From the IMG/VR virus record IMGVR_UViG_2534681938_000031: 10,931 nt of DNA; one strand, written 5' to 3'. Within the stretch, counting starts at the first letter, position 1. Each line of letters starts with the position of its first letter. Shown in pieces: positions 9,001 through 10,931 of this stretch. Position numbers: made by a program. Source of the stretch: a virus (lineage: Duplodnaviria; Heunggongvirae; Uroviricota; Caudoviricetes).

Positions 9001-10931
9001 AACGTCCGAAGGTTGCGCCGGAACTTACCGCAGCCTTTGAAAACTTTATGGACATGCACAGCCCGCAAGCCGTATCAGCTGGCATGGCATACGATGGCAG
9101 AAACCAGGGCGATGACGGCGACATCGATCGCATACTGAAAACCATCTGAGACAAGGCCGGAGAAATCCGGCTTTTTTACGGGTCCTTCCTGGAATTATGG
9201 CCCGTTACGGGGCGGCGACCTCGCGGATTTTCGCTATTTATGAGCCTTTTCAGGGTGGTGGTGGTGGTTTTGTTGTTTGATCTATCTTTATGAATGAAAA
9301 GGGAAAGATGCAAGCAATACACCAACCTGAAGCAGTAATTAAGTTGGTGTATTAATGAAATCTCATCTGATGAACAAAAAAAACATGGCGAAAAGCTGCC
9401 GTGTAAGTGCGACAGCGTTCGACAAGTGGGGAGTAACTCCCGTTGAGCGTAAAGGCCGTGAGGCGTTTTATGATGTTGCCAGCGTGATAGAAAATAGGGT
9501 TAACAATGCAATTAGCCAGCTTATAAACGACAAAGGCGAGATTGACGATGATGAACTTTTACGAGTCAGGATCAGATTACTGACAGCACAGGCAGAGGCG
9601 CAGGAACTTAAAAACGATCGCGATCGCGGTGACGTGATTGATACTGAGTTTTGCCTGTACGCGCTTTCAAAGCTGGCGAGTCAGATTTCATCAATCATGG
9701 ACAGCCTCCCGCTTACTATGCAAAGGAGCTTCCCACAGATTACCCCCGCCATGCTGGACAGGCTTAAAAGGGAAGTGGTTAAAGCCTGTAATGCCAGTGC
9801 CAGAGTTGCCGACAACCTCCCACAGATACTGGCTGATTACTTGAAAGAAACAACCGGAAACGTACCGGAAAAGTTGCTACAGAAGAAAGGCGAGTAACAG
9901 ACGCGCAATTATTGAACAAAAATGAGAAAGGATCTGATAATGGCATTTTCTGGCTAAAATGCCTCGTGTCAGATCCTTTCTTTTTTAATATTTTCATTGT
10001 TAAACAGTCTGTTACAGAGAAGAAGATCGGATCTGACTTTTGCCGGAAAATTCTCATAAACAGATAAAAACCGCGAGGTCGCCGCCCCGTAACGGGCCAT
10101 AATTCCAGGAAGGACCCGACGACACCAGACTATCAGAGCGATGGGGGCACAATGACAGAAGCCGAACTACTGGGATTAATCCGCCGCGTCGCCGGAATCA
10201 GCCAGCAGCATGACGAACAGGCCACACAGCCGGACAGCGTGACCGCTGAAAATTATGTGCGTGTTGTAGCGGAAGTGATGCGCCGTGATGGTATAGAACT
10301 TAATGGCGTTGATATGCGCAACATACGGAACCGCGTTCTTGAAATGCTGGCCTACAATCGCCGCGTTGAACTGTATCGGGAGAAAGAAAAATAACGTACC
10401 ACTGGAAGAAGCCGGAACGGCTGCGGCGGTAACTTGCTGATATTCCCGATAACGCAAAATTGCGCTGGCTACATCCTCACATCTGAGGACTGTTAATCAG
10501 AAGGCCGGAATATATTCACAAACTACGAAATTTTCGTAGTTTAATTAATGGTCTGAACCGCCCCGGGTTTCCTGGAGAGTGTTTTATCTGTGAACTCAGG
10601 CTGCCAGATCATCGTTTCCGATGGAAGCATAATAAGCTTTTTCTGCTTCTGCCGGAGGAGTATGGCCCAGCCTTCCCAGCAATCGTCGATTGTTATACCA
10701 GTCCACCCACGTTAGTGTGGCCAGTTCCACTTCTGCACGGTTTTTCCAGCTCTTACGGTGTATTACCTCCGCTTTGTAAAGACCATTGATGCTCTCAGCC
10801 ATCGCGTTGTCATACGAGTCGCCTGTACTCCCTGTTGATGCCAGTAATCCGGCTTCTTTTAGTCGCTCCGTATAGGCCAGTGACACATACTGAGAGCCTT
10901 TATCGCTGTGATGGATGGTGCCAGACGGACG

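What the first reader, a model, noticed from the sequence alone, without database searches (positions are those of the whole stretch)
10521..10931. IS629-like element inserted next to the packaging region, preceded by a perfect 21-bp palindrome
The IS end at 10554 lies about 435 bp from cosQ and 160 bp past the 80-aa ORF, so the island's right-hand continuation is interrupted in this window. The insertion may have separated the cos/terS module from downstream genes, a possible step in domestication. Immediately left of the IS end is AACTACGAAA-T-TTTCGTAGTT (10521-10541), a perfect 10-bp-arm palindrome of unknown role.
Basis: partly seen in the sequence, partly recalled or inferred. Interest (0 to 1): 0.35.

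Follow-up and report, generated by a model that had tools for sequence, protein, structure and literature searches.

The report
Stray IS629 beside a conserved palindrome
A routine, strain-private IS629 insertion sits in the non-coding right arm of a known E. coli O157:H7 satellite island and looks cut off only because the draft contig ends there, while the palindrome beside it is an older dyad kept symmetric by paired base changes in phage antirepressor-like genes and their remnants.

Summary
Both observations are real. Positions 10554-10931 are the right end of IS629/IS1203 (378/378 identical to O157:H7 copies), with its transposase gene on the minus strand. The palindrome is exact and extends to 23 bp (10520-10542).

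The interpretation mostly fails. The window is the last 10.9 kb of a draft contig that stops inside the IS. The rest of the window matches the 11.2-kb island OI-51/CP-933C/Sp7 (a PICI between roxA and phoQ), differing only by five homopolymer deletions.

IS-free islands continue for 471 bp of non-coding DNA to attR, at the phoQ stop codon. So the IS lies inside the island but cuts off no genes. None of 5,426 complete E. coli genomes has either junction, so the insertion is private and probably near neutral.

The palindrome predates the IS. It lies in a decayed fragment of a phage antirepressor-like gene on the minus strand, where TAC-GAA-AWT-TTC-GTA reads Y-E-(I/N)-F-V. Across protein-selected homologues, a P22 intergenic remnant and other islands, the dyad keeps 9-11-bp arms through double changes (92% paired; 0/500 shuffles as high). 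It looks like a selected hairpin or dyad of unknown function. It is not a canonical terminator and shows no link to IS targeting.

The parts
10554..10931 (-). Right-hand 378 bp of IS629/IS1203 (IS3 family), inverted relative to the window and cut off by the contig end
   Evidence: 378/378 identical to a full 1,310-bp copy in O157:H7 PV15-279. The boundary is set by alignment to the IS-free island. The contig ends 2 nt after the window.
10554..10593 (-). Right terminal inverted repeat of the IS (TGAACCGCCCCGG...)
   Evidence: The first 25 nt match the other IS end in 22 positions in the full copy L045.
10596..10931 (-). 3' part of the transposase orfB (111 codons; stop codon at 10596-10598)
   Evidence: Pfam rve_3 at 3.2e-12, plus rve_2 and rve. 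RefSeq annotation of identical copies.
10551..10553 (.). GTC, the predicted 3-bp target-site duplication. Its second copy would lie beyond the missing IS end.
   Evidence: Inference. The IS-free sequence reads ...GGTC|AGATTAATCGC. A full copy elsewhere is flanked by a 3-bp duplication, CTT. IS629 duplicates 3-4 bp (PMC3271280).
10520..10542 (.). Perfect 23-bp palindrome AAACTACGAAA-T-TTTCGTAGTTT. It is one member of a dyad family with core TACGAAAWTTTCGTA whose arms change together.
   Evidence: exactness and chance. (present in IS-free islands). (variants and extra copies in other islands). (paired changes).
10515..10553 (-). Left part of a roughly 105-bp conserved non-coding block (L002 16478-16582) that is a decayed 5' fragment of a phage antirepressor-like gene. 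The IS splits this block.
   Evidence: The block occurs in 1,250 of 5,426 E. coli genomes and is never annotated. It shares 33/36 nt with a KilAC antirepressor gene of UTI89, reading RLPQIEVSE. The minus-strand reading RVSD*SDH*LNYENFVV matches RVNDEIGENLNYENFVV.
10152..10394 (+). Last gene of the island (PHROG 1561, unknown function). It is 80 aa here and 93 aa in the reference.
   Evidence: A7 to A6 homopolymer deletion at 10387. PHROG match at 2.7e-58.
10043..10118 (-). Second, inverted copy of a lambda-like cosQ-cosN region, downstream of terS
   Evidence: 91% complementary to 9179-9254. Both copies contain GGGCGGCGACCTCGCGG.
9355..9897 (+). Nu1-type small terminase gene of the island
   Evidence: Pfam Phage_Nu1 at 3.2e-23. 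PHROG 57.

Best explanation
The window is the right-hand 10.9 kb of the phage-inducible chromosomal island OI-51/CP-933C/Sp7 of an E. coli O157:H7-type strain. One extra copy of IS629/IS1203 has transposed into it.

The IS landed in the non-coding right arm. It is 160 bp past the last gene, 12 bp (11 intervening bases) to the right of a pre-existing palindrome, and 471 bp before the attR core at the phoQ stop codon. It therefore lengthens the island by 1.3 kb without cutting any recognisable gene. It also does not touch the attR core or the putative integrase arm repeats.

The insertion is recent and private. The IS looks truncated only because the short-read draft assembly broke inside the repeat.

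The palindrome has nothing to do with the IS. It lies in a decayed 5' fragment of a phage antirepressor-like gene on the minus strand. There the self-complementary codon run TAC-GAA-AWT-TTC-GTA reads Tyr-Glu-(Ile/Asn)-Phe-Val.

In intact genes of that family, in a P22 intergenic remnant and in other islands, the dyad keeps 9-11-bp arms through changes on both sides. Some of those changes alter the protein. The dyad is therefore under selection as a nucleic-acid element. The most likely form (inferred, not shown) is a hairpin in the transcript of the antirepressor-sense strand, which is the minus strand here. What it does is unknown.
For: Shown:
- The window is identical to the end of contig AIFK01000013.1.
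- Positions 1-10553 align to TW14359 with 0 mismatches and 5 homopolymer gaps.
- The island lies between roxA and phoQ. The empty site in K-12 fixes the att core.
- The IS boundary and identity are established.
- Neither junction occurs in 5,426 complete genomes.
- Published work says 62% of IS629 copies sit in prophage-like elements, there is no target consensus, duplications are 3-4 bp, and Sp7 does not appear in the phage-associated target-site table that I read, among 47 mapped sites (PMC3271280).
- The island is treated as a PICI in PMC6092414.

Palindrome:
- It is identical in IS-free islands.
- Variants occur in islands at other att sites, with 4 copies in L024 and 2 in L022.
- In 43 homologues selected by protein similarity, TAC and GTA are invariant (43/43 each) while neighbouring conserved residues vary synonymously.
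- Variants such as TACAAAATTTTTGTA, GGGTTACAAAACTTTTGTAACCC and GCACTACAC-AAAAA-GTGTAGTGC stay palindromic.
- Of 11 pairs, 92% of cells are paired against 79.5% in shuffles (0/500). 7 pairs carry double changes. Slid controls give 32-47%.
- Complementarity falls to background beyond 11 bp from the centre.
- Homology of the block to antirepressor genes is shown.
Against: - The far IS end is not in the window or its contig. The target duplication and the resumption of island sequence are therefore predicted, not seen, and a chimeric contig end cannot be excluded.
- The homology of the remnant to antirepressor genes is short: 33/36 nt, with protein-level E-values between 4e-5 and 0.05 in small search spaces.
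- The sequences used for the pair counts are related to each other. Part of the excess over shuffles could come from shared descent.
- Island copies in L022 and L024 were found with a core-motif search, which biases the inner 13 nt.
- The strand on which a hairpin would act rests on few independent G-U events (11 G-U cells against 2 A-C cells).
- There are no expression data.
Confidence: 0.8

Rival explanations
1. One reading: the IS cut the cos/terS packaging module off from downstream island genes, a step towards domestication of the island.
For: The IS is inside the island boundary. It lies downstream of the terS/cos region.
Against: IS-free copies of the same island have no annotated gene between the 93-aa ORF and phoQ. 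The only ORF there (37 aa) is not conserved and matches no family. int, alpA, repA, capsid, terS and both cos copies are all on the same side of the IS. The apparent break is a contig end. The insertion is private.
Confidence: 0.05
2. The island-IS junction is an assembly artefact: a chimeric contig end in a draft assembly whose homopolymer errors suggest 454-type reads. No IS is really there.
For: The contig ends 380 bp into a repeat present in roughly 20-40 copies per genome. The assembly carries homopolymer errors. No other genome shows the junction.
Against: The switch falls exactly at the first base of the IS terminal repeat, as a true insertion requires. A random chimera would rarely do that. 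IS629 is actively transposing in this lineage and favours prophage-like DNA (PMC3271280).
Confidence: 0.07
3. The palindrome is the operator of a dimeric DNA-binding protein, for example autoregulation of an antirepressor that binds inside its own gene, as I recall being reported for HK022 Roi.
For: The core is a 15-bp sequence-conserved dyad, with several dispersed copies lacking T-tracts in L024 and L022. The family carries a KilAC C-terminal domain like Roi. The Roi report is from memory only, because the paper is not held.
Against: Symmetric double changes and covarying outer arm positions fit base pairing better than fixed base-specific contacts. HK022 roi itself has no perfect palindrome with arms of 8 bp or more. 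No similar dyad occurs elsewhere in the island.
Confidence: 0.2
4. The palindrome is an intrinsic terminator, possibly bidirectional, closing the island's rightward operon.
For: It lies 126 bp after the last gene as read in this window (89 bp in the reference). It folds as a 10-11-bp hairpin of about -12 kcal/mol on either strand, z about -2.6.
Against: The stem is A+T-rich and no U-tract follows. The terminator scan finds nothing there. Other copies are followed by C-rich sequence or sit inside coding regions.
Confidence: 0.1
5. The palindrome attracted the IS: target choice near a hairpin.
For: The IS is 12 bp from the palindrome. An unrelated IS1203 copy in O111 has a vaguely similar A+T-rich flank...TAATAATGTC|.
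Against: That flank similarity is weak and came from BLAST extension. The published survey found no target consensus (PMC3271280). The flank of the copy in L045 is unrelated. Hundreds of genomes carry the palindrome without an IS.
Confidence: 0.04

Closest known systems
IS629 / IS1203 (IS3 family) insertions in E. coli O157:H7 prophage-like elements
   Same: Identical sequence over 378 bp. The terminal repeat starts TGAACCGCCCC. The transposase has an rve domain. The insertion lies in a prophage-like island, as do most copies (PMC3271280).
   Different: This site, the right arm of OI-51/Sp7, is not in the phage-associated site table of PMC3271280 (47 sites mapped in four reference genomes) and is absent from 5,426 complete genomes.
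E. coli phage-inducible chromosomal islands (OI-51 / CP-933C / Sp7; EcCICFT073-type PICIs)
   Same: Integrase, AlpA, RepA helicase, SSB and PerC transcribed rightward. Lambda-type capsid (E, D) and Nu1-type terS genes with cos. About 11.2 kb with short att repeats.
   Different: This copy carries an extra IS, and five homopolymer frameshifts that are probably sequencing errors.
Phage antirepressor genes with a KilAC (ANT) C-terminal domain: the Rha / Roi / Ant1 group
   Same: The conserved block around the palindrome shares 33/36 nt and the peptide RLPQIEVSE with a UTI89 prophage gene. It shares ...LNYENFVV with another subfamily.
   Different: In the island it is a short fragment with in-frame stops and a frameshift, not a gene. 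HK022 roi itself lacks the palindrome.
The non-coding remnant between ant and gene 9 of phage P22
   Same: A homologous fragment (...ELEGE-x-Y....V..K.NK...) lying in intergenic DNA and keeping a dyad at the same place: GACCTACAA-AAAAA-TTGTAGGTC.
   Different: The arm and loop sequences differ. It sits in a phage late region rather than at an island end.
Rho-independent terminators
   Same: A hairpin just downstream of the last gene.
   Different: No G+C-rich stem and no U-tract. It is conserved in sequence and also occurs inside coding regions.

Membership tests
IS3 family, IS629/IS1203 | Near-identity to reference copies of the element | tested here: met
   378/378 identical to annotated IS1203-family copies in O157:H7.
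IS3 family, IS629/IS1203 | Imperfect terminal inverted repeats starting 5'-TG | tested here: met
   The right repeat TGAACCGCCCCGGGTTTCCTGGAGA begins at 10554. It pairs with the left repeat in the full copy L045, 22 of the first 25 positions. The left repeat is not in the window.
IS3 family, IS629/IS1203 | DDE transposase (rve) made from two frames by programmed -1 frameshifting | tested here: inconclusive
   Only the last 111 codons of orfB are present (rve_3 at 3.2e-12). Identical full copies are annotated with a programmed frameshift.
IS3 family, IS629/IS1203 | 3-4-bp target-site duplication | not testable with these tools
   The far end lies beyond the contig. The prediction is GTC. A full copy elsewhere shows CTT duplicated.
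Phage-inducible chromosomal island (Gram-negative PICI) | Integrase at one end and short direct att repeats bounding about 10-15 kb | tested here: met
   int is at window 1-1230. GGACATATTT occurs at L002 5787 and 16997, 11,210 bp apart. The empty site is seen in K-12.
Phage-inducible chromosomal island (Gram-negative PICI) | AlpA regulator, own replication module, packaging-related genes, and no lysis or tail genes | tested here: met
   RefSeq annotation and Pfam show AlpA-type HTH, RepA helicase, SSB, capsid E, decoration D and Nu1 terS, with nothing else.
Phage-inducible chromosomal island (Gram-negative PICI) | Induction and packaging by a helper phage | not testable with these tools
   This needs experiments. 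PMC6092414 treats OI-51 as a counterpart of EcCICFT073.
Intrinsic terminator | G+C-rich stem followed by a U-tract | tested here: not met
   3 G-C pairs out of 11. The tail is UAAUUAAU on the plus strand and GUGAAUAU on the minus strand. There is no hit in the scan.
Conserved structured nucleic-acid element (hairpin or dyad under selection) | Base pairs kept through changes on both sides across homologues | tested here: met
   7 of 11 pairs carry double changes. 92% of cells are paired against 79.5% in shuffles (0/500) and 32-47% when slid. Homologues selected by protein similarity give 191 Watson-Crick cells out of 209.
Conserved structured nucleic-acid element (hairpin or dyad under selection) | Membership of a described RNA family | tested here: not met
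   No relevant Rfam match at E up to 1 over L002 15100-17100.
KilAC/Rha-type antirepressor gene | Intact open reading frame with the family domains | tested here: not met
   Only a fragment of about 100 nt shows similarity, with in-frame stops and a frameshift. It is a remnant, not a gene.

The most novel reading that the evidence does not exclude
The 23-bp palindrome belongs to an undescribed, widespread structured element. It is a hairpin or dyad with core TACGAAAWTTTCGTA embedded in the N-terminal coding region of a family of phage antirepressor-like genes. There it constrains codon choice and even amino-acid choice. It survives as the conserved part of gene remnants at the ends of E. coli PICIs and upstream of the P22 tailspike gene. 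It would act as an RNA processing, stability or regulatory hairpin, or as a recombination joint. It sits exactly at mosaic boundaries between islands.
Probability: 0.35. Interest if true: 0.55.

Novelty: new member of a known kind. Interest (0 to 1): 0.27.

Why it matters
The IS insertion matters little. It is one more private IS629 site in an O157:H7 prophage-like island. It could serve at most as a strain marker, and it is a reminder that contig ends inside repeats can look like biological interruptions.

The palindrome is the part worth keeping. A dyad that holds its symmetry through paired changes inside a protein-coding region, and that persists after the gene has decayed, points to an unrecognised cis-acting element shared by temperate phages and their satellites. 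If confirmed, it would be a tractable case of overlapping protein and nucleic-acid constraints. It might also mark module boundaries in the mosaic evolution of these islands.

Tried and rejected
1. O111 flank. The first BLAST suggested that IS copies in O111 strains share 15 bp of flank with the window. Alignment showed only a weak A+T-rich resemblance produced by extension.

2. Toxin idea. I considered the 37-aa hydrophobic minus-strand ORF (L002 16536-16649), whose stop lies 10 bp from the insertion point, as a type I toxin with the palindrome as its terminator. It is not conserved as an ORF in other islands and matches nothing in Pfam or PHROGs. Its C-terminus is better read as part of the antirepressor remnant.

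3. Known RNA or signals. Rfam gave nothing relevant on the right arm. The promoter and terminator scans gave nothing at the palindrome.

4. Phage matches. BLAST of the whole right arm against 50,697 phage records found no match.

5. Species-representative scan. A 19-mer search gave 16 hits, where I estimated about 9 by chance. Only Shigella flexneri had the homologous context. The Xenorhabdus neighbourhoods later proved to be antirepressor-like coding sequence.

6. Integrase arm site. The similarity of the palindrome arm to the GGTGTAGTTAAT repeats at both island ends is not convincing. Only one further near-match to the half-site occurs in the window.

7. Literature. Searches for the motif itself and for palindromes in KilAC antirepressors found nothing relevant.

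8. HK022 Roi, a lead from memory. The paper is not held, and roi has no perfect palindrome with arms of 8 bp or more.

9. Far IS junction. I could not reach the other contigs of the source assembly. Neither junction exists in complete genomes.

Full report
**What the window is**

The window is identical to the last 10.9 kb of contig AIFK01000013.1 of NCBI assembly GCA_000249375.2. It ends 2 nt before that contig does.

Positions 1-10553 align to E. coli O157:H7 TW14359 (NC_013008.1) with no mismatches. There are five one-base deletions, all in A or T homopolymers, which look like draft-assembly errors. One splits repA and one shortens the last ORF from 93 to 80 aa.

In TW14359 this DNA is an island between roxA (ycfD) and phoQ. 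It carries:
- a tyrosine integrase and an AlpA-type regulator;
- a RepA-family helicase, SSB and PerC;
- lambda-type major capsid (E) and decoration (D) proteins;
- a Nu1-type small terminase;
- a final 93-aa ORF of unknown function.

The literature knows it as O-island 51, which it treats as a counterpart of EcCICFT073-type phage-inducible chromosomal islands (PMC6092414). The synonyms CP-933C and Sp7 are from my own knowledge.

**Island boundaries**

I compared the empty site in K-12 (75 bp between roxA and phoQ) with the two junctions in TW14359. This places a 10-bp core, GGACATATTT, at L002 5787 and 16997. The right copy overlaps the phoQ stop codon.

The island is therefore about 11.2 kb. 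Its attL lies 171 bp upstream of the window start. Just inside each end is an imperfect 75-nt direct repeat carrying tandem GGTGTAGTTAAT units, a plausible set of integrase arm sites.

**The insertion sequence**

The window follows the IS-free island up to ...TTAATTAATGGTC (10553). It then reads TGAACCGCCCCGGGTTTCC..., whereas TW14359 continues AGATTAATCGC....

Positions 10554-10931 are 378/378 identical to a full 1,310-bp element that RefSeq annotates as an IS3-like IS1203-family transposase with a programmed frameshift. From my own knowledge, this is the element that O157 papers call IS629. The window holds its right inverted repeat and the last 111 codons of orfB on the minus strand.

The full copy I examined is flanked by a 3-bp duplication, CTT. 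Here the duplication should be GTC (10551-10553), and the far joint should read ...GGGGCGGTTCA-GTC-AGATTAATCGC. That joint is not in the contig and I could not reach it.

Neither the observed nor the predicted junction exists in any of 5,426 complete E. coli genomes. A published survey mapped 47 IS629 sites in four O157:H7 genomes. It found 62% in prophage-like elements, no target consensus and 3-4-bp duplications. Sp7 is not in its table of phage-associated target sites (PMC3271280).

An apparent 15-bp flank shared with O111 copies proved to be an alignment-extension artefact.

**What the insertion does**

The IS lies inside the island, 471 bp to the left of the attR core.

It does not, however, separate the packaging module from anything. 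IS-free islands have no annotated gene between the 93-aa ORF and phoQ. The only open frame there is a 37-aa minus-strand ORF ending 10 bp from the insertion point. It is not conserved in related islands and matches no family.

All recognisable island functions lie to the left of the IS. The att core and the putative arm repeats lie together to its right. The most likely consequence is a 1.3-kb longer island and little else. This is an inference.

**The palindrome is older than the IS**

The palindrome is exact and runs from 10520 to 10542 (11-bp arms). It is the only palindrome of that quality in the window. About 3% of shuffles give one with arms of at least 10 bp.

It is identical in IS-free O157 islands. 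Slightly different versions occur in related islands integrated at tqsA, yejO, yifB, allC and dinD.

A 105-bp block around it occurs in 1,250 of 5,426 E. coli genomes, in up to six places per genome, and is never annotated. Homology between islands starts or stops at the palindrome in several cases. One island has four copies of the core and another has two in tandem.

None of the copies is followed by a T-tract, and the terminator scan finds nothing.

**Where the palindrome comes from**

A large share of the hits lie inside coding sequence that reads ...RIKDELEGEHYEIFVVQK......GEGYEIFVTP... or ...ENLNYENFVVGK.... These are N-terminal regions of antirepressor-like proteins, and the one subfamily tested carries a KilAC/ANT C-terminal domain. 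TAC-GAA-AWT-TTC-GTA is self-complementary and reads Y-E-(I/N)-F-V on either strand.

The minus strand of the island block reads RLPQIEVSENISGLAIN. A KilAC antirepressor of a UTI89 prophage reads RLPQIEVSERINNLGFN, with 33/36 nt identical. After a frameshift the island block reads RVSD*SDH*LNYENFVV, against RVNDEIGENLNYENFVV in another subfamily.

The block is therefore best read as a decayed 5' fragment of such a gene, pointing inward from attR. The support is short but consistent across islands.

**Evidence that the dyad itself is selected**

I collected homologues of one subfamily by protein similarity, so that codon choice could not bias the sample. Among 43 distinct sequences:
- Tyr is always TAC and Val is always GTA (43/43 each). 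GTA is, from general knowledge, a rare Val codon in E. coli.
- Glu is GAA in 29/29 and Ile is ATT in 25/25.
- Neighbouring conserved residues vary synonymously.

Where the peptide differs, the symmetry is kept:
- TACAAAATTTTTGTA, where E to K is accompanied by TTC to TTT;
- TACGAAACTTTCGTA;
- GGGTTACAAAACTTTTGTAACCC;
- GCACTACAC-AAAAA-GTGTAGTGC;
- GACCTACAC-AAAAA-GTGTAGGTC.

The codons just outside the core are complementary in several different ways: GGT/ACC, TTT/AAA and AAC/GTT.

Phage P22 has a homologous non-coding remnant between ant and gene 9, with GACCTACAA-AAAAA-TTGTAGGTC at the same place.

On 34 distinct 41-mers the 11-pair dyad is 92% paired, against 79.5% in column shuffles (0 of 500 as high) and 32-47% when the partner is slid. 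7 pairs show changes on both sides.

In 89 distinct 31-mers, complementarity holds out to 11 bp from the centre and then drops to background. G-U pairs favour the antirepressor-sense strand, which is the minus strand here, by 11 cells to 2. This rests on few independent events.

No Rfam family matches. I found no paper describing the element.

**What the palindrome might do**

I rank the possibilities as follows:
1. A base-paired element, most likely an RNA hairpin in the sense transcript.
2. A protein operator.
3. A terminator.

From memory, HK022 Roi binds inside its own gene, which suggested an autoregulatory operator. The paper is not held, and roi has no comparable palindrome. The function stays open.

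**Verdict**

The IS is an ordinary, private IS629 insertion into non-coding DNA of a known island, made to look dramatic by a contig end. The palindrome is unrelated to it. It is real, conserved and apparently under selection for pairing, and it is the only part of the finding that deserves follow-up.

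Noticed in passing
window 9179-9254 (+) and 10043-10118 (-): The Nu1-type terS gene (9355-9897) is bracketed by two lambda-like cosQ-cosN copies in opposite orientation, 76 nt long and 91% complementary. Both contain GGGCGGCGACCTCGCGG. The upstream copy has the usual cos-then-terS order. The role of the inverted downstream copy is unclear. The same arrangement is present in TW14359.
   Followed up: partly
window 4357, 6631, 7190, 9981, 10387: The only five differences from TW14359 over 10.5 kb are one-base deletions in A or T homopolymers. They split repA (3972-4391 and 4388-5371) and shorten the last ORF from 93 to 80 aa. 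They look like sequencing errors rather than decay of the island.
   Followed up: yes
L002 5872-5946 and 16849-16923 (both outside the window): An imperfect 75-nt direct repeat lies just inside each island end. Each copy ends in tandem GGTGTAGTTAAT units, which are candidate integrase arm-type sites.
   Followed up: no
window about 6516-6545, 6879-6908 and 9151-9180 (L002 12484, 12848, 15121): There are three copies of a 30-nt hairpin-plus-T-run unit, (A/G)GCCGGAG(A/C)AATCCGGCTTTTTT, 80-100% alike. They look like terminators reused between island modules.
   Followed up: no
L002 16603-16617 and 16770-16793; L024 4132-4148 and 4270-4286: The right arm beyond the IS site holds further palindromes that recur in other islands: TGGTCATAATGACCA and CGTTATGGGGATCCCCATATCG. 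The arm is a mosaic of reshuffled short blocks.
   Followed up: partly
L024 3619-4011 (E. coli O145 RM9154-C1): A related island next to dinD carries a Q-family antiterminator gene 80 bp downstream of its copy of the palindrome. It also carries three PerC-family genes and a ProQ/FinO gene.
   Followed up: no
L017 (strain NADC 5570/86-24 derivative) about 2180-2320: In some O157 relatives with a TerL-encoding island at phoQ, the 46-bp unit CTAACCCGCTGATATTTTCGGAAACCTCAATTTGAGGAAGTCGG next to the palindrome is repeated. This lengthens the right arm by about 150 bp.
   Followed up: partly
L247 677-700 and 784-808 (phage P22, between ant and gene 9): The antirepressor-like remnant in P22 is flanked by direct repeats AAAATTCACCGTAGCCA(C/T)GCT. 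These may be scars of the recombination that placed it there.
   Followed up: no
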